Below, one piece after another: positions 1 through 56,725 of a DNA stretch of 64,000 nt (its first letter is position 1; each line of letters starts with the position of its first letter). The notes beneath the pieces were generated by a model. That model made no database searches. It had not been told where the DNA came from and was given only the letters and a program-made list of their open reading frames with translations. The translations under genes were made by a program, and so were the position numbers. This stretch comes from an uncultured Candidatus Rokubacteria bacterium (GTDB taxonomy: Bacteria; Methylomirabilota; Methylomirabilia; Rokubacteriales; CSP1-6). The stretch is taken from contig CAVUPM010000002.1 in NCBI GenBank assembly GCA_963743355.1, positions 2,546,825 to 2,610,824 on the forward strand, in the 5' to 3' direction.

Positions 1-245
1 AAGACACCGACGACGCCCGTGAGCTGCTGGCCTTCGTGCTCGAGCAGTGCGCGCCGGTGGTGACCGCGGCCGCGAACGCGACCGACGGACTCGCGGCGTT
101 CCTCCGCGACCGCCCTCGGATCGTCGTCACCGATCTCGCCATGCCCGGGCACGACGGCTACTGGCTGCTGCGCCAGGTGCGGGCGCGCGCGGCCGCCGCC
201 GACGTGCGCGCCACGGCTCCGCCGGGGCGTCCCGAGCCACCCTAG
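1..245 (+). CDS. Response regulator receiver domain protein, 5' end outside the window; ORF terminates abnormally after helix alpha3 inside a copy of the dispersed repeat element
   Basis: Translation DTDDARELLAFVLEQ...IVVTDLAMPGHDGYWLLRQVRA matches the CheY-like receiver fold (D-x-x-MPG-DG); the C-terminal ...ADVRATAPPGRPEPP* and the stop at 243-245 are encoded by the repeat element (209-278). Confidence 0.55.
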   Translation, partial: DTDDARELLAFVLEQCAPVVTAAANATDGLAAFLRDRPRIVVTDLAMPGHDGYWLLRQVRARAAAADVRATAPPGRPEPP

Positions 246-278
246 GGGCTTGGGGAGCCCGTTCGAGGCCCCCCATCC
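209..278. repeat. Copy D of the dispersed GC-rich double-hairpin repeat element
   Basis: cgccacggctccgccggggcgtcccgagccaccctaggggcttggggagcccgttcgaggcccccc aligns nearly base-for-base with the copies at 12615-12712 and 44141-44225. Confidence 0.6.
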
Positions 279-281
279 TAA

Positions 282-1082
282 CTAATCCAGCAGCCGCCGC
301 CGAAGGCCGTCGACGGCACTGCGAAAGTCGTCGCCCGCCGAATCGACACCTCGCTGGATCTCGCGCCAGTCTTCGCGGAGCTTGTTCGGCAGATCGAAGC
401 CCCGCCGGGGCGCCGGGCGTGACGCGGCCGGGGCGGGCGCAGCGTCGGTCGGTGCCGCGCGTGGAGTCACCGCCGCCACCGGCGGCGAGGGCGCGATGAT
501 GGGCGCGGGCGGCGGGGCTGGGGGATCCATGGTCCGTGACGTCGACGGTGACGCGGCCGGGGCGGGCGGCTCGGACCTGGCCATCTCTTCGATCGGCCTC
601 GCGAGAGTCGGCGGCACGGGTCTGACGGCAGGCGAAGCGCCCGGCCGGGTCCCCGCCGGCGGCGGGGTCGGCGCAGGCCGCTCGACCACCGGCCGCGGTG
701 GGGCGGCCTCGCGCCGGCGCAGCGCGTCCTGCAGCTCTCGAATCCGAGCCTCGGTCTCCATCAGCCGCGACTCCTGCCCTGCGACCTTCTCGCCAAGCGC
801 CGGGACCTGGGCGTCGGACGCCGGCACCGCAACGGCCGCTGGCGACGGTGTGGGCGAGGGCTGAACGAGCACGATGGCAATCAGGATGGCCGTCGCGGCG
901 AAGCACGCGGCGGCCACCGTGTGGCCGAGGCGGGTCAGGATGAGACGGCGGTTGGCTCGGTCAGGCGCGTCCTCGTCGCCCGGAGTGAAGCCGTAAAGCA
1001 CCACGAGGATGCAGATGACGACGGCACCGAGGGCGCTGAGGGCCACTGCGGTGGCGAGCGCGGCCGGGGCGAACGCAGGCAT
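282..1082 (-). CDS. Hypothetical membrane-anchored protein with two TM helices, a coiled-coil segment and a long Pro/Ala-rich tail
   Basis: Reading from the internal Met (MPAFAPAALATAVALSALGAVVICILVVLYGF...): hydrophobic helices, then EARIRELQDALRRRE, then P/A/S/T-rich low-complexity region; no recognisable family. Confidence 0.4.
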   Translation of the reverse strand: MPAFAPAALATAVALSALGAVVICILVVLYGFTPGDEDAPDRANRRLILTRLGHTVAAACFAATAILIAIVLVQPSPTPSPAAVAVPASDAQVPALGEKVAGQESRLMETEARIRELQDALRRREAAPPRPVVERPAPTPPPAGTRPGASPAVRPVPPTLARPIEEMARSEPPAPAASPSTSRTMDPPAPPPAPIIAPSPPVAAVTPRAAPTDAAPAPAASRPAPRRGFDLPNKLREDWREIQRGVDSAGDDFRSAVDGLRRRLLD

Positions 1083-1133
1083 GGTACTCCTCCTGCCCCC
1101 AAGTCTGCACACACTATACCAGGCCCGCCGAGC

Positions 1134-10050: not shown

Positions 10051-10359
10051 TTTCTGCGATTGATGAATCTCGTGCTACGTGGTGACGCCGGGCCCCGGAC
10101 CCGAGGGCCGCGGGCGCGCCATCACGGCGGCCGTCGTCGCCGTTCGAGCGCAGGGGGCGGCGAGCGAGCCGCCGAGGATTCGGCTGGTCCGCGCCCGAGC
10201 CCCCGCGGGGGGATGGGGGCCCCGAGCGAGCCGGGCAGGCGCGCCCGCGGCCCTCGGGCCTGGCGCCCGGCGTCACCAGACTCCACGAGGATCGTTCGCC
10301 CCGCGGCGTCGGACTTCCGCATTCACGTGTGGCTGAGCGGGACTGCTACAATCCGGGGC

Positions 10360-11473: not shown

Positions 11474-12580
11474 GTGACGATCGTCATCGCGGGCGGCGGG
11501 ACCGGGGGCCACACCAGCCCCGGACTCGCCGTGGCCACGCTGTTGCGCGAGCGCGGCGTGGGCCACGCCTGGATCGGCAGTCGGGACGGCGTCGAAGCGC
11601 GGCGCGCGCCCGAAGAAGGCATCCCCTACCACGCCATCGCGACCGGCAAGCTGCGCCGCTACTGGGCGTGGCGCAACGTCACCGACCTCGCGATCAACGT
11701 GCCGGCCGGCATCGTCGGCGCCCACGTCCTGCTGCGCCGGCTGCGCCCGCGCGTCGTGCTGGCCACCGGCGGCTTCGTCGCCCTGCCCGTTGTGCTGGGC
11801 GCCGCGCTGGCCGGCATCCCGGTCGTCGTCCACGAGCAGACGGCGGTGCCGGGCCTGGCCAACCGGATCGCCGCCCGGGGCGCGCGCCGCATCGCGGTGA
11901 CGTTCGCGGAGAGCGCGCGACACTTCCCGGCCGACCGGGTGGTCGTCACCGGCAACCCGCTGCGTCCGGACCTGCGCGCCGGCTCGCGGGCGGATGCGGT
12001 GGGGCGCTTCGGCCTGGATGCCGCGTTGCCCCTCGTCTACGTCACGGGCGGCGCGCTGGGCGCGCACGCCATCAACCGGGTCGTCGGCGAGATCGCGGGC
12101 GACCTGCTCGCGCACGCCCAGGTGATCCACCAGTGCGGCGACAACGCCGTCACCGGCGACCGCGCCTGGCTCGAGGCCAGGCGCAACGCGCTGCCGGCAG
12201 CACTCGCGCGCCGGTACACGGTGCAGCCGTGGGTCGGCCCGGAGCTGGCCGGCATTTACGCGACCGCGGCGCTCGTGGTCGCCCGCTCCGGCGCCGGCAC
12301 CGTGAACGAATGCTGCCAGCTCGGGCTGCCGGCCCTCTACGTCCCGATGCCCGGCGCCAGCGGCGACGAGCAGACGGCCAACGCCCGGCTGGTCGGCCGT
12401 GTCGGCGGCTGCTCGATCGCGCCCCAGGCCTCGCTCACACCCGAGCTGCTCCTCGAGCGCATCCGCGGCCTCCTGGCCGAGCCCGCCCGACTCAAAGACA
12501 TGGGCGAGCGCGCCCGCACCCTGGCGATTCCCGACGCCGCCGAGCGCCTCGTCAACCTCCTGCTGGAGATCGTCGGGTGA
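11474..12580 (+). CDS. murG: MurG-family glycosyltransferase (UDP-GlcNAc:lipid I GlcNAc transferase)
   Basis: GTG start; GGTGGH motif near the N-terminus (IAGGGTGGHTSPGLAV) and GT28 C-terminal domain. Confidence 0.8.
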   Translation: MTIVIAGGGTGGHTSPGLAVATLLRERGVGHAWIGSRDGVEARRAPEEGIPYHAIATGKLRRYWAWRNVTDLAINVPAGIVGAHVLLRRLRPRVVLATGGFVALPVVLGAALAGIPVVVHEQTAVPGLANRIAARGARRIAVTFAESARHFPADRVVVTGNPLRPDLRAGSRADAVGRFGLDAALPLVYVTGGALGAHAINRVVGEIAGDLLAHAQVIHQCGDNAVTGDRAWLEARRNALPAALARRYTVQPWVGPELAGIYATAALVVARSGAGTVNECCQLGLPALYVPMPGASGDEQTANARLVGRVGGCSIAPQASLTPELLLERIRGLLAEPARLKDMGERARTLAIPDAAERLVNLLLEIVG

Positions 12581-12585
12581 TCAGG

Positions 12586-13377
12586 CTACCGGCGTTTCGT
12601 GGTGTGGCGGCTCGACGGATATCGAGGAGCGCCCCGGCTCCGCCGGGGCGCTCCGAGCGTCGGGGGGGTCTGGGGGGCCATCTCGGGGCCCCCCATCAGG
12701 TCGAAGCGGGCCGGGCAGGAATCGCAGCGCGGGATCGTGCGGCAGTGTGCCTTGGCAACCGCGACCAGCAAGGCGTGGAACTCGTTGAAGAGCGCGGGGT
12801 CCGAGGGCAGGTGCGCCTCGAGGAACGCGCGCGTCTCCTCGTAGCCGGCGTGGAGCCGCAGCAGGCGGTGACGCACGAGCACGCGGCGCGTGTAGGCGTC
12901 GGCGACGAAGACCGGACGGCCGGCGGCGTAGAGCAGGATCGCGTCGGCCGTCTCCGGCCCCAGGCCGGGGACCCCGAGCAGCTCACGCCGCACGGGCCCC
13001 AGCGGCGCCCGGCGCATGGCGCGGAAGTCGCCGCCGAAGCGCTCGAGCAGCCAGCCGGTGAAGTCGAGCAGGCGGCGCGCCTTCAGGCGATAGGTGCCGG
13101 CCGGTCGCACCAGCGCGCCGAGGGCGACGACATCGCAGCCGGCCAGGCGTCTCGGGGTCAGCAGTCGATGGGCCCGGAGCGCGGCCACGGCCCGAGCGGC
13201 GCCCGGCCAGGCCGTGTGCTGGGTCAGGATCGCTCCGACGGCCACCTCGAAGGCCGTGCGGGCCGGCCACCAGCCCTGCGGGCCGTAGCGCGCCTGCAGC
13301 GCGCGGTAGAGCCGCAGCAGGCGCGCCTTGCTGGGATCGCGCGGCGGGCCGGGGATCCGGCGCCAGCCCGGCAGCAT
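12586..13377 (-). CDS. Endonuclease III-like HhH-GPD DNA glycosylase family protein with an atypical, repeat-derived C-terminus
   Basis: HhH-GPD motif LLGVPGLGPETADAILLYAAGRPVFVADAYTRRV; Fe-S motif HCRTIPRCDSC keeps 3 Cys but the fourth is replaced by a tail (MGGPEMAPQTPPTLGAPRRSRG...) encoded by the repeat element. Confidence 0.6.
   Translation of the reverse strand: MLPGWRRIPGPPRDPSKARLLRLYRALQARYGPQGWWPARTAFEVAVGAILTQHTAWPGAARAVAALRAHRLLTPRRLAGCDVVALGALVRPAGTYRLKARRLLDFTGWLLERFGGDFRAMRRAPLGPVRRELLGVPGLGPETADAILLYAAGRPVFVADAYTRRVLVRHRLLRLHAGYEETRAFLEAHLPSDPALFNEFHALLVAVAKAHCRTIPRCDSCPARFDLMGGPEMAPQTPPTLGAPRRSRGAPRYPSSRHTTKRR
12615..12712. repeat. Copy A of the dispersed GC-rich double-hairpin repeat element, overlapping the 3' end of the endonuclease III-like gene
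   Basis: Hairpin 1 GGAGCGCCCCGG-ctccg-CCGGGGCGCTCC (12-bp stem) and hairpin 2 GGGGGGCC-atctcgg-GGCCCCCC; about 90% identical to the copy at 44141-44225. Confidence 0.65.
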
Positions 13378-18959: not shown

Positions 18960-19065
18960 TCGACGGGCCGCCGAACAGCGGCCATCCGCGGCGTTGGCTC
19001 CTCGCTCTTCCCTGAGGCGCCTGCGGCATACGCCTCAGAGCTCGTGCACGAATCGCGTGGTCGAG

Positions 19066-19093
19066 GCGCGCCCCGGGTGTCCCGGGGCGCGCC
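19066..19093 (+). terminator. Candidate intrinsic terminator hairpin after the polyamine/methyltransferase operon
   Basis: Perfect palindrome GGCGCGCCCCGGG-tgt-CCCGGGGCGCGCC (13-bp stem), preceded by a second hairpin CTGAGGCG-11nt-CGCCTCAG at 19012-19038; no U-tract, as is common in high-GC genomes. Confidence 0.4.
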
Positions 19094-19141
19094 GAGCGCA
19101 TGGGGGGCGTGGGGCCCTGACCGCGAGGTAGGCTTCAGACC

Positions 19142-20320
19142 ATGCCCAGACTGACGGCGGTTGTGAGGCTCAAGCGCGGACGTGAGCAGAAGGCTCGGGT
19201 GCATCCGTGGATCTTCAAGGGCGATGTCGCCGATGCCAGCGATGTTGCGCCCGGCAGCATCGTGACGGTGGTGGATGCCGGGGGACGGTTCGTGGGGCGG
19301 GGGTTCTTCAATCCGCGGCCGGCGCTGTGCTGTCGGATCGTGACGTGGGAAGACGAGGCGGTCGACGCCCGGCTCCTGTCGCGCCGGCTCGTGGCGGCGG
19401 TCGACGCGCGGGGGCGCGGGGGAGCGGTGCCCGACGTCGGGCGGCTGGTGTGGAGCGAGGCGGACGGGTTGCCGGGGCTGGTGGTCGATCGGTACGGGCC
19501 GGGGCTGGTGGTGCAGTGTCTGACGCTGGGCATGGCGCGGGTACGGGATGACATCGTTGCCGGGCTCCGCGCCCGGGTCGGCGATCTCGCCGTGTTCAGC
19601 ATGGACGACGCCGTGGTGGCTCAACTGGAGGGCTTCGAACCGGCGGCCGGCTGGGTGGATCGGCCCGGGCCCGAGGAGATCGTGATCGACGAGGGCGGTG
19701 TGCGCTTCGCGGTGCGGCCCGGCGTCGGCCACAAGACCGGCGTCTACCTCGACCAGGCCGGTAACCGGGTAGCCGTCGGGGCCGCGGCCGGTCCCGGCGT
19801 CGCCCTGGACGTCTTCGCCTACACCGGCGGCTTCGCCTGCCACGCGCTCCAACGGGGCGCGCGGCGGGTGGTGTGCATCGAGTCCTCCCCCGAGGCCATC
19901 GCGGGCGCCCGCCGCAACCTCGAGCTGAACGGCTTCACCGAGCGCGCGGAAATCCGCGCCGTCAACGCCTTCGACGAGCTCCGCCGCCTGGACCGCGACC
20001 GCACCCGCTTCGACCTCATCGTCCTCGACCCCCCACCCTTCGCCCGCAGCCGATCAGCCCTGGACGCCGCCCTCCGCGGCTACAAGGAGATCAACCTGCG
20101 CGCGCTGCGCCTGCTGGCTCCCGGCGGCCGCCTGGCCACGTTCTCGTGCTCCCACCACGTGGACGAGACCACCTTCGAAGCCACCATCCGCGACGCCGCC
20201 ACCGACGCCGCCGTCCGTCTCCGCCTCCTCACCCGCCTGGACCAAGCCCCCGACCACCCGATCCTCCTGACCATCCCCGAGACCCGCTATCTGAAAGGAT
20301 TTCTCCTCCAAGCGCTGTGA
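19142..20320 (+). CDS. rlmI: 23S rRNA (cytosine1962-C5)-methyltransferase RlmI (PUA plus class I methyltransferase)
   Basis: N-terminal PUA-like region (RVHPWIFKGDV), SAM motif LDVFAYTGGFACHA, DPPPFARS motif IV. Confidence 0.8.
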   Translation: MPRLTAVVRLKRGREQKARVHPWIFKGDVADASDVAPGSIVTVVDAGGRFVGRGFFNPRPALCCRIVTWEDEAVDARLLSRRLVAAVDARGRGGAVPDVGRLVWSEADGLPGLVVDRYGPGLVVQCLTLGMARVRDDIVAGLRARVGDLAVFSMDDAVVAQLEGFEPAAGWVDRPGPEEIVIDEGGVRFAVRPGVGHKTGVYLDQAGNRVAVGAAAGPGVALDVFAYTGGFACHALQRGARRVVCIESSPEAIAGARRNLELNGFTERAEIRAVNAFDELRRLDRDRTRFDLIVLDPPPFARSRSALDAALRGYKEINLRALRLLAPGGRLATFSCSHHVDETTFEATIRDAATDAAVRLRLLTRLDQAPDHPILLTIPETRYLKGFLLQAL

Positions 20321-20488
20321 CCGCGCGGGGCCCGGCGCTGGCGCCGGGTGGCGGGCGAGGCACTCCCGCCGGACGAGCCGTGGCACCACCCGCAACGCAA
20401 GGCTGGCCGGGCGAGCCGGCGGGCGGGTGCCGAGCCGGACAGGGCCCGGCGCCAGCGCCGGGCCCCGCGCGGTCACAGCGCTTGGAGG
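20305..20488. repeat. Perfect 44-bp inverted repeat flanking a 96-bp spacer between convergent genes; MITE-like element or very long bidirectional terminator
   Basis: Left arm CCTCCAAGCGCTGTGACCGCGCGGGGCCCGGCGCTGGCGCCGGG (20305-20348) is the exact reverse complement of the right arm (20445-20488); the last 5 codons and stop of rlmI lie inside the left arm and the stop of the minus-strand gene abuts the right arm. Confidence 0.6.
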
Positions 20489-20489
20489 A

Positions 20490-34181: not shown

Positions 34182-34877
34182 CTAGCGGTCGCGCTTGCGG
34201 AAGCGACGGGCCTCCAGGCGGAGCAGCCGCCGGTCGACCCTCGTGAACTGAGCGCGAACCTCGCTCTGGAAGCGGTCGAGCCGCTCGTTGGTCCCTCGCA
34301 CGCCTTCGGCGACCAGCTCGATCTTCATGATGAGGCCCTCGGCGACGACCCCGGCGTGCCGACGCGTCTCCGCGCCCTGCTCGTCGACGTAGTGGCGGGT
34401 CTCCACGCCCTGCTCGTCGACGTAGCGGCGCGTCTCCACGCCCTGCTCATCGATGTAGCGGCGCGTCTCCACGCCCTGCTCATCGATGTAGCGGCGCGTC
34501 TCCACGCCCTGCTCATCGATGTAGTGACGCGTCTCCACGCCCTGCTCATCGATGTAGCGGCGCGTCTCCACGCCCTGCTCATCGATGTAGTGACGCGTCT
34601 CCACGCCCTGCTCATCGATGTAGCGGCGCGTCTCCACGCCCTGCTCATCGATGTAGTGACGCGTCTCCACGCCCTGCTCATCGATGTAGCGGCGCGTCTC
34701 CACGCCCTGCTCATCGATGTAGCGGCGGGTCTCGGCGTGACTCGCGTCGACGTCGCGACGGGTCTCGGCCGCACTCTCGTCGACACGGTGCAGGATCCGC
34801 TGTTCGAGAGCGGCCAGAGTAGCGAGCAGCTCCTGACGGAAGGGATCGGGAGACGGCTCAGGTGCGGGCGTGTCCAC
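34182..34877 (-). CDS. Hypothetical protein built around about 12 tandem copies of an 11-residue repeat ETRR(Y/H)(I/V)DEQGV, flanked by short coiled-coil-like N- and C-terminal regions
   Basis: MDTPAPEPSPDPFRQELLATLAALEQRIL...[ETRRYIDEQGV]x12...LIMKIELVAEGVRGTNERLDRFQSEVRAQFTRVDRRLLRLEARRFRKRDR; GC3-rich codons on this strand, whereas the opposite-strand ORF runs antisense into yajQ. Confidence 0.55.
   Translation of the reverse strand: MDTPAPEPSPDPFRQELLATLAALEQRILHRVDESAAETRRDVDASHAETRRYIDEQGVETRRYIDEQGVETRHYIDEQGVETRRYIDEQGVETRHYIDEQGVETRRYIDEQGVETRHYIDEQGVETRRYIDEQGVETRRYIDEQGVETRRYVDEQGVETRHYVDEQGAETRRHAGVVAEGLIMKIELVAEGVRGTNERLDRFQSEVRAQFTRVDRRLLRLEARRFRKRDR
34356..34784. repeat. Tandem array of about 13 units of a 33-bp repeat (GTAGCGGCGCGTCTCCACGCCCTGCTCATCGAT), near-identical, with alternating CGGCGC/GTGACG variants
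   Basis: Eight central units are identical apart from the 66-bp alternation (CGGCGC vs GTGACG variants); outer units progressively diverge. Confidence 0.9.
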
Positions 34878-42968: not shown

Positions 42969-44141
42969 GTGAGCCCCGCCTCGACCGGGATCGTCGCGAC
43001 GGCGGCCCGGCTCGCCCGCGAATGCCTGGCGCCGCGGGCGGCCCGCTACGACCGCGACGCCGCCAACCCGGTCGACAGCTGGCGTGATCTACACGCCGAG
43101 CACCTGATCGCGGCCGCCGTCCCCACCGCCCACGGGGGCCTCGGCCTCGACATGCCCACCTACGTGGAGGTCATCCGCGCGCTGGCCCAGGGCTGCGCCA
43201 GCACCGCGATGACCCTGCACATGCACTCCACCGTCATGCGCTTCATCGCGGCGCTCGGCACCTGCGACCAGCAGCGGCGCTACTTCGGCGAGGTCGTCGA
43301 CCGCGGCCGGATGTTCGGCTCGTGGGGCAGCGAGCCGGCCGTGAGCCTGTCACGCACGTTCCTGATGGAGACGACGCTGCGCGCCGACGGCGACGGGTTC
43401 GTCGTGGACGGTGTGAAGTACTTCTGCACGATGGCGCTCGGCGCGTCCTTCTACATGGTGTGGTGCGCGCTCGACGGCGAGGCCGACATGGGCAAGGCGC
43501 TGTGCCTGGCCCTGGTGCCGGCCGACACCGCCGGCCTGGCCACCGACGGCAAGTGGGACACGCTCGGCATGCGGGGGACGTACAGCCCGTCGGTGACGCT
43601 CACCGGCGTATGGATCCCGGGCGACGCGGTGCTGGGCCGGCCGGGCGCGGCGACCCAGGTCGGCGTCGTCGAGAGCTTCGGCCTGGGCTACGCGGCGGTC
43701 TACGTCGGAATCGCCGAGGCCGCGCTGGATTTCACGCTCGACTACGCCAAGAAGCGCGTGGTGAAGCCGGAGAACGTCGCGGTCGCCCAGGACCCCACCG
43801 TGCAGCGCCACCTCGGCGGGCTCGTCGTGCACCTGGATGCCGCCCGTCTGGTGCTGCGCGCCGCCGCCGCCGGCTGGGAGGTGGCCGACGTGGCCGAGCG
43901 CGGCAACCTCGCCAACCGCGCCAAGTTCCTCGGCACCGAGGTCGGGCTGGACGTGACGTCGAAGTGCATCCAGGTCGTGGGCGGCCGCGGCGCCTACCGC
44001 GATTACCCAGTGGAGCGCGCCTTCCGCGACGCCCGTACCGCCACGCTCATGCCGCCGACGATGGACCGCATGGCGGAGCTGATTGGCAAGAGCGCGCTCG
44101 GGCTCACCGAGGGGATGTTCCGGATCAGCGGCGAGAGCTGA
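42969..44141 (+). CDS. Acyl-CoA dehydrogenase family protein
   Basis: ACAD fold; C-terminal QVVGGRGAYRDYPVERAFRDARTATL FAD/CoA-binding motif. Confidence 0.8.
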   Translation: MSPASTGIVATAARLARECLAPRAARYDRDAANPVDSWRDLHAEHLIAAAVPTAHGGLGLDMPTYVEVIRALAQGCASTAMTLHMHSTVMRFIAALGTCDQQRRYFGEVVDRGRMFGSWGSEPAVSLSRTFLMETTLRADGDGFVVDGVKYFCTMALGASFYMVWCALDGEADMGKALCLALVPADTAGLATDGKWDTLGMRGTYSPSVTLTGVWIPGDAVLGRPGAATQVGVVESFGLGYAAVYVGIAEAALDFTLDYAKKRVVKPENVAVAQDPTVQRHLGGLVVHLDAARLVLRAAAAGWEVADVAERGNLANRAKFLGTEVGLDVTSKCIQVVGGRGAYRDYPVERAFRDARTATLMPPTMDRMAELIGKSALGLTEGMFRISGES

Positions 44142-44225
44142 CGGGACATCGAGGGGCGCCACGGCTCCGCCGGGGTGCCCCGAGCGACTGGGGGGTCTAG
44201 GGGGGCCATGTCGGGGCCCCCCTAC
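44141..44225. repeat. Copy B of the dispersed GC-rich double-hairpin repeat element (intergenic, between convergent genes)
   Basis: gccacggctccgccggggtgccccgagcgactggggggtctaGGGGGGCCatgtcggGGCCCCCC. Confidence 0.65.
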
Positions 44226-48906: not shown

Positions 48907-49133
48907 CGTCCCCGGTCTGATATCGCGCACCGTGACAGCGGTGTCGCCGACGCGGGCGGAGGACGTACGAGATGGGGTCCGTGGACCCGTTCCCGCCACC
49001 CATCACCGTGTGCCCCCCAGCCGGATGGAGCCCAGCCACGGCCGGGCGAGGCGGCCTCCGGCCGCGTGGTGCCACGGACCCCACCTCGTACGTCCTCCGC
49101 CCGCGTCGGCGACACCGACCGGCGGCGCGGAGG

Positions 49134-55934: not shown

Positions 55935-55995
55935 GCCGCCGGGCCGGCACCCCCGAGCCACCCGGGGGGTCTGGGGGCCATGTCGGGGCCCCCCA
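55935..55995. repeat. Copy C (partial) of the dispersed GC-rich hairpin repeat element
   Basis: ggcacccccgagccacccggggggtctGGGGGCCatgtcggGGCCCCCC. Confidence 0.55.
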
Positions 55996-56026: not shown

Positions 56027-56725
56027 GTGCCGCTGCGCCGCCTGCGCTACGCGACCCTGGATGCCCTGCTCCGCCGCGAGCTGGTCCGCGAGGAGCATCC
56101 GGCCACCGCGGCGCTGATCCGCGACCTCGCCGGCGTGCGCGCGCGCGGCGCCTTCACGCGCGGGGAGTTCACGCGGATGTGCCGGTGGAAGAGCCCGCGG
56201 GCGCGCCTGCTGTGGGGGGCCAACTCCCCGGCGCGCGTCCGCGCGGTCTCTCGCGCAGTCCTGGCGACCCGCAGCGAGCGGCGCCGGATGGAACTGCTGA
56301 CGAGCCTGCGCGGCGTCGGCGTGCCCATCGCCTCCGCCATCCTCACCCTCATCGACCCGCGCCGCTACGGCGTCCTCGACATCCGCGCCTGGCAACTCCT
56401 CGTCGCCATCCGCTCCGTCCGCACGAACGCCCGCGGCCAAGCCTTCACCATCGCGCAGTGGGAGCAATACCTCTCGGCCCTACGCCACCACGCCCGTTGC
56501 CTCGGCGTCACCGCCCGTACGATCGAATACACGCTGTTCGAGTGCCACCGGAAATTTCAACAGGGGACTCTCTACGTCCGCTCCGAGCGCCGGCTCCGCC
56601 GGCGCAATCCTGTCCTCGGGGGAGGCAGCGAGGAGCGCGCCGCCAGGCGCGCGACGACCGTCGGCCGGGGAGTCCGAGGGGGCGTAGCCCCCTCGCTCAC
56701 ACGGGGGACGAAGTCCCCCGTGTGA
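56027..56725 (+). CDS. Small HhH-GPD-like (DNA-glycosylase-fold) hypothetical protein
   Basis: LTSLRGVGVPIASAILTLIDPRRYGVLDIRAWQLL resembles the helix-hairpin-helix plus Gly/Pro loop plus Asp of the EndoIII superfamily (compare LPGVGRKTANVVL...AVDTHIFRV); GTG start; the last 9 codons are the hairpin at 56698-56728. Confidence 0.45.
   Translation: MPLRRLRYATLDALLRRELVREEHPATAALIRDLAGVRARGAFTRGEFTRMCRWKSPRARLLWGANSPARVRAVSRAVLATRSERRRMELLTSLRGVGVPIASAILTLIDPRRYGVLDIRAWQLLVAIRSVRTNARGQAFTIAQWEQYLSALRHHARCLGVTARTIEYTLFECHRKFQQGTLYVRSERRLRRRNPVLGGGSEERAARRATTVGRGVRGGVAPSLTRGTKSPV

What the first reader, a model, noticed from the sequence alone, without database searches (positions are those of the whole stretch)
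12586..12712. Copies of the repeat element form the 3' ends of two genes, truncating a response regulator and replacing the C-terminus of an EndoIII-like protein
The response regulator at 1-245 stops after helix alpha3 of the receiver fold. Its final ...ADVRATAPPGRPEPP* is encoded by element copy D, and no continuation of the receiver exists in any frame. The HhH-GPD protein at 12586-13377 keeps three Cys of the [4Fe-4S] motif (HCRTIPRCDSC) but lacks the fourth. Its last 36 residues (MGGPEMAPQTPPTLGAPRRSRGAPRYPSSRHTTKRR) are translated from element copy A. This suggests the element inserts into coding regions and remodels C-termini, as MITEs do, and that both proteins may be non-functional or altered.
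Basis: partly seen in the sequence, partly recalled or inferred. Interest (0 to 1): 0.55.

Follow-up and report, generated by a model that had tools for sequence, protein, structure and literature searches.

The report
Repeat element rewrites two gene ends
A small hairpin-forming repeat that is common in Rokubacteria has landed in the tail of a DNA-repair gene, adding a harmless junk tail, and sits where the last third of a signalling gene used to be; small repeats are already known to damage gene ends this way in other bacteria.

Summary
The sequence facts hold. A ~80-nt two-hairpin repeat has five copies in the window, all on the + strand, and is abundant in Rokubacteria/Methylomirabilota MAGs. 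It supplies the 3' ends of two ORFs.

**Response regulator (3-245).** The annotated protein has 103 aa; syntenic orthologs have 136-138. Forty-seven codons (beta4-alpha5, including the conserved Thr and Lys) are gone. A 5'-truncated element copy (207-276) supplies 12 codons and the stop. This is a deletion or replacement, and the gene is very probably dead.

**HhH-GPD gene (12586-13377, minus strand).** One 80-nt unit (12617-12696) was inserted cleanly after Leu227, with no target duplication and no terminal inverted repeats. The old 11-codon tail is still present (12581-12616) but is now read out of frame.

**The "missing fourth Cys" is not caused by the element.** All 120 orthologs have only Cys-X5-Cys-X2-Cys, followed by a short tail. 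The core is intact. dN/dS is 0.18-0.24 among lineages that carry the insertion. The new tail is predicted disordered, and its amino-acid sequence is not conserved. The enzyme is therefore most likely still functional.

**How common this is.** About 10% of genes converging on copies of this element end inside it. Close precedents are the Coxiella QMITE2-EnhC extension and Rickettsia RPEs. How the element moves is unresolved.

The parts
12617..12696 (+). Element copy A, one 80-nt unit (GGATATCGAGG...GGGGCCCCCCAT). Its reverse complement encodes residues 228-254 of the HhH-GPD protein.
   Evidence: nhmmer hit 12613-12696, E 1e-17. Boundaries come from the filled/empty comparison with L134, L129 and L130.
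12626..12654 (+). Hairpin 1: a 13-bp G+C-rich stem with a 3-nt loop. Its structure is conserved across copies while its sequence varies.
   Evidence: Fold of the window copy. Compensatory base-pair changes at four or more stem positions in 121 distinct copies.
12672..12694 (+). Hairpin 2, GGGGGGCC-ATCTCGG-GGCCCCCC, preceded by G-tracts. This is the sequence-conserved part of the element.
   Evidence: Its invariance in the collected copies follows partly from how they were retrieved.
12581..12616 (-). Displaced native tail of the HhH-GPD gene: 11 codons plus the ancestral TGA at 12581-12583, which abuts the murG stop (TGATCA). It is now read out of frame.
   Evidence: It aligns with the native tail of the empty site L134 and with the same segment in L129 and L130. 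The native-frame reading is VEPPHHETPVA*.
12586..12588 (-). Present stop codon (TAG) of the extended HhH-GPD ORF. It lies 2 nt (12584-12585) upstream, in the gene's reading direction, of the ancestral TGA at 12581-12583 (5 nt start to start).
   Evidence: L129 and L130 use the same TAG.
12697..13377 (-). Intact HhH-GPD core (residues 1-227). It ends with the family's Cys-X5-Cys-X2-Cys-Pro-x-x-x-Asp-Leu.
   Evidence: Pfam HhH-GPD; alignment of 60 orthologs; AF2 pLDDT above 90 over the core; dN/dS 0.18-0.30.
11474..12580 (+). murG, the convergent neighbour. The element is co-oriented with it and lies just past its stop.
   Evidence: Pfam Glyco_transf_28 N- and C-terminal domains. Synteny in L007, L129 and L130.
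3..245 (+). 3' part of the truncated CheY-like response regulator gene. Native sequence runs to position 206; positions 207-245 are element-derived.
207..276 (+). Element copy D. It is 5'-truncated (profile positions 27-96, lacking the TCGAGG end) and sits in place of the last 47 codons of the receiver.
   Evidence: nhmmer E 2.5e-4. DNA alignment with the syntenic locus L001.
282..1112 (-). Convergent proline-rich gene. Its native C-terminus (...RRLLD*) is intact. In orthologous loci its stop overlaps the stop of the response regulator gene.

Best explanation
**What the element is.** It is a non-coding repeat of about 80 nt, built from a variable-sequence G+C hairpin, G-tracts and a conserved GGGGGGCC...GGCCCCCC hairpin. 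It is abundant in Rokubacteria/Methylomirabilota and lives in the very short gaps at gene 3' ends, usually within 0-10 nt of a stop codon. At two places in this window it lies inside former coding sequence.

**(1) HhH-GPD glycosylase.**
- Shown: one unit was inserted between codon Leu227 and the last 11 codons, with no target duplication.
- Inferred: ribosomes now read 27 codons of the element's reverse complement, then 9 codons of the old tail in the wrong frame, and stop at a TAG 5 nt before the old TGA.
- Shown: the catalytic core and the family's complete three-Cys end are untouched.
- Inferred: the extension is disordered junk that is tolerated, and the gene stays functional.

**(2) CheY-like response regulator.**
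- Shown: the last 47 codons (beta4-alpha5, with the conserved Thr and Lys) are absent. A copy of the element lacking its own left end sits in their place and supplies 12 codons and a stop.
- Inferred: the simplest route is a deletion with one end in the element and the other in the gene, and the result is a dead gene.

**The fourth Cys.** Its absence is a trait of the whole protein family and has nothing to do with the element.

**How the element moves (inferred).** It most likely moves by a mechanism that makes neither inverted ends nor target duplications. A single-strand, hairpin-recognising HUH-type transposition, as for REP/RAYT or IS200/IS605 derivatives, is the best guess.
For: **Element family.**
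- A genome-collection scan found more than 119 stretches in many Rokubacteria MAGs, with several copies per genome and tandem arrays.
- Hairpin 1 shows compensatory changes.
- Both strands of copy A fold more stably than shuffles, z -2.5 and -3.4.

**Position relative to genes.**
- The element is almost absent between divergent genes (2 of 133 arrays).
- In 51 of 70 convergent neighbours the stop lies 0-10 nt from the element end.
- 7 of 70 convergent neighbours end deep inside the element.

**HhH-GPD.**
- 120 orthologs have three Cys and no fourth.
- 66 of 77 loci have a 12-14 aa tail.
- Empty site L134 reads GATCTG|GGCGGCCGCC...CGCCGCTGGCCTGA. The filled sites L129, window and L130 have a 79-80 nt insert at that point, followed by the same tail.
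- The insertion is shared by window, L129 and L130/L132, which form one clade.
- dN/dS among these is 0.18-0.24, at dS 0.3-0.4.
- The tail amino-acid sequences differ because the element is read in different frames.
- AF2 gives the core pLDDT above 90 and the tail 53-62 with no secondary structure.
- The nearest solved relative is MagIII.

**Response regulator.**
- Orthologs are 136-138 aa against 103 here.
- Synteny and DNA homology stop at 206 and resume at about 282.
- No remnant of the missing part exists in the window.
Against: **History at the HhH-GPD site is not simple.**
- The closest relative, L005 (96% DNA identity), has no element and a short tail. It can be explained as a later deletion, but the contig is only 904 nt.
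- L006, from a different clade, has the element at the identical junction. Its copy is 89% identical to the window's, whereas clade-mates L129 and L130 are 78-80% identical and have decayed hairpins. This points to repeated or refreshed insertion at one site rather than a single old event.

**Other weaknesses.**
- The match between the displaced tail and native tails is short. Shuffle support is p about 0.007-0.03 at best.
- There are no expression or protein data. If transcripts end at the hairpins, the mRNA could lack a stop codon and the protein could be degraded.
- No cognate transposase was found. That test was weak, because the queries were recalled from memory and only 1.1 Mb was searched.
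- The N-terminal part of the response regulator gene lies outside the window.
Confidence: 0.75

Rival explanations
1. One reading: the element replaced the native C-terminus of an EndoIII-like enzyme, including its fourth iron-sulfur cysteine, and left a crippled protein.
For: The protein has Cys-X5-Cys-X2-Cys, no fourth Cys, and an element-derived tail.
Against: - No ortholog has a fourth Cys. Only three Cys columns are conserved in 120 sequences.
- The native tail is 12-14 residues without Cys.
- Sequence is conserved through Asp226-Leu227.
- The core shows purifying selection.
- The closest solved structure is MagIII, reported in the literature to lack an iron-sulfur cluster (for the match; the cluster status is from my own knowledge).
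Confidence: 0.04
2. Sequencing or assembly artefact: a homopolymer-length error in the G/C runs hides the real stop codon, or the real continuation of the receiver.
For: The element contains runs of 6-7 G or C, which are error-prone. A different truncated response regulator (L131) is indeed just a frameshift.
Against: - All three frames through the element give an extension of at least 36 aa.
- The same junction occurs in independent assemblies: L006, L129, L130 and L132.
- No frame after position 207 resembles a receiver, and the missing 141 nt are absent.
Confidence: 0.03
3. Exaptation: the Arg/Pro/Gly-rich extension has become a useful part of the glycosylase, for example a flexible DNA-binding tail, and is kept for that reason.
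For: The ORF stays open to the same TAG in three lineages with dS 0.3-0.4. The tail is basic.
Against: - The amino-acid sequence is not conserved, because hairpin 1 is read in different frames (APRRSRGAPR versus RPGEAPALL).
- Two of the three frames end within 8 nt of each other anyway.
- L006 stops early inside the element. L005 and L133 look like deletion derivatives that lost the extension.
- The tail is predicted disordered.
Confidence: 0.07
4. History variant: the element did not enter once. It inserts repeatedly and site-specifically at ...GACCTG|, and can excise precisely, in the manner of IS200/IS605-type or RAYT-mobilised elements. On this view the window copy is recent and independent of those in L129, L130 and L006.
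For: - The junction is identical in two clades.
- The window copy is near the family consensus and 89% identical to L006's, while the L129 and L130 copies are decayed.
- There is no TSD and no TIR, and hairpins sit near both ends.
- All five window copies are on one strand.
- Element-free relatives are nested among filled ones.
Against: - No conserved target motif could be defined at either end.
- No Y1/RAYT gene was found (a weak test).
- Neighbouring copies in other loci are not co-oriented: 17 same, 14 opposite.
- The shared downstream tail features of window, L129 and L130 fit a single old event equally well.
Confidence: 0.3

Closest known systems
QMITE1/QMITE2 of Coxiella burnetii (PMC5896051)
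   Same: These are small, structured, multi-copy non-coding elements that overlap the 3' ends of functional genes. In strain Dugway a QMITE2 insertion at the 3' end of enhC supplies the C-terminal 33 residues and the stop lies just beyond, which closely parallels the 36-residue tail here. The authors also raise the idea of stop-less mRNA and degradation.
   Different: QMITEs have terminal inverted repeats and direct repeats. The Rokubacteria element has neither. There is no sequence relationship, and the host is a high-G+C soil phylum.
Rickettsia palindromic elements (RPEs), as reviewed in PMC10969869
   Same: These are palindromic repeats found inside protein-coding genes and translated as part of the product, apparently without destroying function.
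   Different: RPEs are about 150 bp and are typically inserted in frame within ORFs. Here the unit is 80 nt (not a multiple of 3), lies 11 codons from the end, and shifts the frame of the old tail. Most copies are extragenic.
REP/BIME elements and their RAYT transposases (PMC3733652, PMC3479197)
   Same: These are high-copy imperfect palindromes at gene 3' ends, often between convergent genes, with no TIR or TSD. They occur in tandem or mosaic arrangements and are thought to act as mRNA 3'-end stabilisers or terminators (titles and abstracts; the role is from my own knowledge).
   Different: REPs are 20-40 nt and carry a GTAG or CGTC tag. This unit is 80 nt with two different hairpins and G-tracts, has no conserved GTAG/CGTC, and no RAYT was found.
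MagIII-type / 'endonuclease III-related' HhH-GPD glycosylases (PDB 1PU6)
   Same: This is the best solved-structure match to the protein (E 1e-18) and the best NCBIfam match (PRK13913, below cutoff). The HhH-GPD fold is confirmed by Pfam and AF2.
   Different: The Rokubacteria family keeps three of the four EndoIII cysteines. From my own knowledge, MagIII has none and EndoIII has four.

Membership tests
MITE (miniature inverted-repeat transposable element) | Small, non-coding, multi-copy element with presence/absence polymorphism | tested here: met
   The unit is about 80 nt. There are 5 copies in 64 kb and more than 119 stretches in MAGs. Filled and empty sites exist at one locus.
MITE (miniature inverted-repeat transposable element) | Terminal inverted repeats | tested here: not met
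   The ends defined by the filled/empty comparison are GGATATCGAGG... and ...GGGGCCCCCCAT, which are not complementary. The two hairpins are internal and differ from each other.
MITE (miniature inverted-repeat transposable element) | Target-site duplication of fixed length | tested here: not met
   The HhH-GPD insertion has no duplication. Among 79 isolated copies the flank repeats match the null distribution, except for a few odd long duplications of 11, 46 and 84 nt.
REP/BIME | Short imperfect palindromes, extragenic, at gene 3' ends, in high copy number | tested here: met
   However, the unit is longer than a classical REP and holds two different hairpins.
REP/BIME | Conserved GTAG or CGTC tetranucleotide at one end of the palindrome | tested here: not met
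   The consensus ATCGAGGAGCGCCACGGCTTCGCCGGGGCGCTCCGAGCG... has no conserved GTAG or CGTC tag at a stem foot.
REP/BIME or IS200/IS605-derived element | Cognate HUH (Y1) transposase or RAYT gene in the genome | tested here: inconclusive
   tblastn with IS200 TnpA and E. coli RAYT sequences recalled from memory found nothing in 1.1 Mb of window plus loci. The whole genome could not be searched.
IS200/IS605-derived element (PATE) | No TIR, no TSD, subterminal hairpins; insertion next to a fixed 4-5 nt target | tested here: inconclusive
   The first three features are met. No fixed target motif was found: flank conservation is weak (A93 T52 G47 T57 ...), although the junction is identical in two clades.
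Endonuclease III / MutY [4Fe-4S] glycosylases | HhH-GPD domain | tested here: met
   PF00730, E 4e-10, above the cutoff.
Endonuclease III / MutY [4Fe-4S] glycosylases | Four-cysteine cluster loop Cys-X6-Cys-X2-Cys-X5-Cys | tested here: not met
   The family has Cys-X5-Cys-X2-Cys, and Leu stands at the fourth position in all 120 orthologs. The NCBIfam nth and mutY scores are far below their cutoffs.
Response regulator receiver domain (CheY-like) | Complete (beta-alpha)5 fold with the phospho-acceptor Asp plus the conserved Thr/Ser (beta4) and Lys (beta5) | tested here: not met
   Only Pfam profile positions 6-70 of 111 are present. The ortholog segment ...ALTAFTERY...KPI... is missing. The roles of the Thr and Lys are from established knowledge of CheY.

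The most novel reading that the evidence does not exclude
The element is an undescribed kind of bacterial mobile repeat. It moves without inverted ends or target duplications and homes to the few A+T-containing nucleotides around stop codons in a 70% G+C genome. It carries stop triplets near both of its ends, so it usually caps the neighbouring genes harmlessly. About one neighbour in ten nevertheless acquires a new, translated C-terminus. On this reading the element is a systematic, phylum-wide source of C-terminal variation and of small deletions in Rokubacteria. The HhH-GPD site would be a recurrent, site-specific insertion hot spot.
Probability: 0.2. Interest if true: 0.55.

Novelty: new member of a known kind. 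Interest (0 to 1): 0.3.

Why it matters
**For annotation.** The 263-aa 'endonuclease III-like' protein and the 103-aa 'response regulator' should be read, respectively, as a normal MagIII-like glycosylase with a junk tail and as a pseudogene. The three-Cys motif should not be scored as damage.

**More generally.** The case shows that in Rokubacteria, a widespread and uncultured soil phylum, a very abundant hairpin repeat is packed against stop codons. In roughly 10% of convergent neighbours it becomes part of the ORF. Gene callers will therefore report many spurious or extended C-termini in these genomes.

**On novelty.** Repeat-derived C-termini and repeat-associated truncation are already documented in Coxiella and Rickettsia, so the finding extends a known phenomenon. 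It does not open a new one.

Tried and rejected
- **Flawed analysis.** I chose the coding strand by GC3, which is strand-symmetric. Those counts are void. They were redone with the GC1 > GC2 rule, which was checked on known window genes.
- **Other truncated response regulators.** I first thought these showed a hot spot. L131 (P0160) is only a frameshift, P0162 looks frame-shifted too, and no DNA could be retrieved for P0139.
- **Microhomology-mediated deletion.** I considered fusion of the glycosylase to a downstream element copy. The filled/empty alignment shows a clean insertion with the old tail retained.
- **In-frame insertion rejoining the native stop.** Rejected. The insert is 79-80 nt, and the present TAG is an out-of-frame stop 5 nt before the old TGA.
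- **Rfam.** There is no hit at gathering thresholds. A sub-threshold match to the gyrA RNA motif (22.5 bits against 45) has many non-canonical pairs and is not reproduced by the 44140 copy, so it is chance.
- **DNA of the window genome beyond its ends.** The exact-protein look-ups for P0001 and P0121 found nothing on record.
- **Transposase search.** Searching with sequences recalled from memory found nothing.
- **Literature.** The search found no description of this repeat in Rokubacteria.

Full report
**Source and element**

The window is about 70% G+C. Its proteins match a 3.28-Mb contig of a Rokubacteria/Methylomirabilota genome.

Direct-repeat search groups copies at about 196-273, 12617-12694, 19056-19133, 44144-44221 and 55953-55995. 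The conserved hairpin-2 string occurs 4 times against 0.02 expected.

A scan of one genome per species found that string in more than 119 stretches. Almost all are in Rokubacteria/Methylomirabilota MAGs, often with several copies per genome and sometimes in tandem arrays of about 98 nt. A profile built from those copies recovers five copies in the window, all on the + strand:
- 12613-12696
- 44140-44223
- 19049-19114
- 55951-55995
- 207-276

The consensus is ATCGAGGAGCGCCACGGCTTCGCCGGGGCGCTCCGAGCGTTGGGGGGTATGGGGGGCCATGTCGGGGCCCCCCAT.
- Hairpin 1 keeps its pairing through compensatory changes at several positions, for example C-G, T-A and G-C at one pair, and C-G versus G-C (66 versus 49) at another.
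- Hairpin 2 is invariant, but that is partly because the copies were retrieved by its sequence.
- Copy A folds more stably than shuffled sequence on both strands.
- Rfam has no family for it. A weak resemblance to the gyrA motif is chance.

**The response regulator**

Frame 3 of 3-245 matches only the first two thirds of the receiver profile. The annotated protein (P0121) has 103 residues, while its closest relatives are single-domain CheY-like proteins of 136-138 residues.

In the alignment the window protein follows the consensus through ...GYWLLRQVRA..AADV and then reads RATAPPGRPEPP*. The orthologs continue PAVALTAFTERYSR.QALAAGFDAFLPKPI.P..LC.ALR.VL.

The orthologous locus L001 has the same neighbours: a convergent proline-rich gene, an aldehyde:ferredoxin oxidoreductase and a TPR protein. 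In L001 the two convergent genes overlap at their stops.

At the DNA level, homology runs to window position 206 and resumes at about 282, at the stop of the convergent gene, whose own C-terminus is intact. In between, 141 nt of receiver coding sequence are replaced by about 75 nt. The profile identifies that segment as positions 27-96 of the element, that is, a copy lacking its own left end.

No frame continues the receiver, and nothing like the missing part exists elsewhere in the window.

From established knowledge of CheY-like receivers, loss of beta4-alpha5 with the conserved Thr and Lys abolishes function. A deletion with one end in the element is the simplest origin.

Another short response regulator in the database (L131) proved to be a mere frameshift.

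**The glycosylase and the 'missing' cysteine**

The ORF 12586-13377 (-) has an HhH-GPD domain. Its best NCBIfam and PDB matches are to MagIII-type 3-methyladenine glycosylase rather than to EndoIII.

Among the 120 best homologs, essentially all carry H-C-R-x4-C-x2-C-P-L-R-F-D-L followed by a short basic tail (typically RGRRPAx) and then a stop. Only three Cys columns are conserved anywhere in the protein. In 77 orthologous loci with a readable end, 66 have a 12-14-residue tail after the Cys-X2-Cys.

The absence of a fourth Cys is therefore a family trait. The window protein is conserved through Asp226-Leu227, the last conserved residues.

**What happened at the glycosylase 3' end**

The element-free locus L134 reads ...GATCTG|GGCGGCCGCCCGCCGGCGCGGTCGCCGCTGGCCTGA. 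Three loci carry an insert at the bar, followed by a recognisably homologous tail:

| Locus | Insert length | Sequence after the insert |
|---|---|---|
| L129 | 79 nt | GGCGAGGCCGCCACGGCGCCAGGCGCCGCTAGCCTGA |
| window | 80 nt | GTCGAGCCGCCACACCACGAAACGCCGGTAGCCTGA |
| L130 | 79 nt | same type, with 15 extra nt |

Shuffle tests of the short match give p of about 0.007-0.03.

The insert is exactly the element, from GGATATCGAGG to CCCCCCAT. There is no duplicated target and there are no inverted ends.

Because the insert is not a multiple of three, the old tail is now read out of frame. The ORF stops at a TAG (12586-12588) 5 nt before the old TGA (12581-12583), which directly abuts the murG stop.

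Of the 36 new residues, 27 come from the element and 9 from the frame-shifted old tail. Any of the three frames would give at least 36 extra residues.

**Is the glycosylase still functional?**

The window, L129 and L130/L132 form one clade and share the insertion. Between them, synonymous divergence is 0.3-0.4 and dN/dS of the core is 0.18-0.24. That is the same range as comparisons with element-free genes, which give 0.16-0.30.

The tails are not conserved as protein. Hairpin 1 is read as APRRSRGAPR in the window and as RPGEAPALL or RPGGAGPLL in the others.

AlphaFold2 gives the core pLDDT above 90, and gives residues 228-263 pLDDT 53-62 without secondary structure.

The best reading is a working enzyme with a tolerated, disordered junk tail. 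Without RNA or protein data I cannot exclude that hairpin-terminated, stop-less transcripts reduce its level.

**Unresolved history**

- The closest relative, L005 (96% DNA identity, 904-nt contig), has no element and ends ...DLRGRSR*. Its ...GCCGCTAGCC matches the distal part of the displaced tail, including the derived TAG, so it can be read as a later deletion of the element plus about 15 nt.
- L133 ends ...DLAGGPDLA*, which looks like hairpin 2 fused to the old stop. That is another deletion derivative.
- L006 belongs to a different clade and has the element at the identical junction. Its copy is 89% identical to the window's. The copies in clade-mates L129 and L130 are 78-80% identical, with decayed hairpin 2.
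- Elsewhere in this intergenic region the element sits beyond the native stop (L007, L140). In L161 it is flanked by an 84-nt duplication of the murG 3' end.

Either the window copy is kept near consensus by conversion or selection, or the site is hit repeatedly. I rate repeated site-specific insertion at about 0.3.

**How general is it?**

Coding strand was called from codon-position G+C (GC3 highest, GC1 > GC2). This corrected an earlier, invalid GC3-only analysis.

Arrays of the element fall as follows:

| Context | Number of arrays |
|---|---|
| Between co-directional genes | 59 |
| Between convergent genes | 26 |
| Unclear left flank, right-flank gene converging on the element | 25 |
| Between divergent genes | 2 |

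- For 70 genes converging on the hairpin-2 end, the stop codon lies 0-10 nt from CCCCCCAT in 51, with peaks at +1 and +4.
- 7 of those 70 (10%), including this glycosylase, end 39-266 nt past the element's hairpin-2 end, that is, within the element or array or just beyond its far side.
- On the other side, 8 of 58 co-oriented genes end inside it.
- A reverse-strand stop triplet occurs within 12 nt of the element end in 67% of copies, against 16% of random positions.
- In the window, the 44140-44223 copy fills the whole gap between the stops of an acyl-CoA dehydrogenase-like gene and a LivF-like ABC ATPase gene.

**Mechanism of mobility**

- No consistent target duplication exists, and there are no inverted ends.
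- Hairpins lie near both ends.
- No IS200-type or RAYT gene was found in the 1.1 Mb at hand, using queries recalled from memory, which is a weak test.

These traits resemble REP/RAYT or IS200/IS605-derived elements more than classical MITEs, but membership in either family is not established.

**Comparison with known cases**

- Coxiella QMITE1 and QMITE2 overlap the 3' ends of several functional genes. In strain Dugway, QMITE2 supplies the last 33 residues of EnhC (PMC5896051).
- Rickettsia palindromic elements are translated inside many genes (PMC10969869).

The present case is a new example of that known kind, in a phylum where I found no description of the repeat.

**Verdict**

The fourth-Cys argument is wrong, and the glycosylase is probably functional. 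Interest is moderate to low.

Noticed in passing
window 12697-12760 (-), residues 209-227; orthologs P0001-P0120: The whole Rokubacteria 'endonuclease III-related' family has Cys-X5-Cys-X2-Cys-Pro-x-x-x-Asp-Leu. The Asp is nearly invariant, and a few members have His instead (e.g. CPLAAHR, CPLAGHL). This may be a three-Cys plus Asp/His metal site, intermediate between EndoIII (four Cys) and MagIII (none).
   Followed up: partly
window 44140-44223: An element copy fills the entire gap between two convergent genes, from the TGA of an acyl-CoA dehydrogenase-like gene (44139-44141) to the TAG of a LivF-like ABC ATPase gene (44222-44224). That TAG overlaps the last nucleotides of the element. Both C-termini look native.
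   Followed up: partly
loci L161, L015, L107 (element flanks): A few copies are flanked by direct duplications of very different length: 84 nt of the murG 3' end in L161, 46 nt including a gene start in L015, and 11 nt in L107. This does not fit a fixed-stagger transposase. It hints at template switching or unequal exchange around the element.
   Followed up: partly
window 56587-56720; also inside copies in L019, L040, L075, L090: This is a second hairpin module (…GGGGAGTCCGAGGGGGCGTAGCCCCCTCGCT…). It occurs on its own in the window and is inserted between hairpin 1 and hairpin 2 of some element copies elsewhere. The repeats therefore appear to be mosaics of modules.
   Followed up: no
window 34261-34854: A tandem array of a 33-nt unit, with at least 13 in-register copies. 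It probably encodes an 11-residue repeat in a protein.
   Followed up: no
window 20304-20489, 48939-49117, 10069-10289: Long inverted repeats unrelated to the element: 45-nt arms at 100% complementarity with a 96-nt spacer; 46-nt arms at 98% with an 87-nt spacer; and 60-nt arms at 82% with a 101-nt spacer. They may belong to other repeat families.
   Followed up: no
locus L005, 735-904: Downstream of the element-free glycosylase gene lies a different repeat, with 19-nt inverted arms (GGGTGACCCCGCCGCGC ... GCGCGGCGGGGTCACCC). It is preceded by a stretch resembling the element's left extension (GAACGATATCGCG). This intergenic site seems to collect repeats.
   Followed up: no
proteins P0036, P0044, P0056, P0064, P0100, P0115; locus L156: Several orthologs are annotated with 290-299 residues. 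Their ORF has lost its stop and runs on through the antisense strand of murG (…RRSAASG…). These are over-extended gene calls typical of high-G+C genomes.
   Followed up: partly
protein P0139 (no DNA retrievable): Another response regulator ortholog, 99 aa long, breaks at the same place (…AVPA|APPPAL*). Its tail could be a frame-shifted reading of hairpin 1, so it may be a second element-truncated allele.
   Followed up: partly
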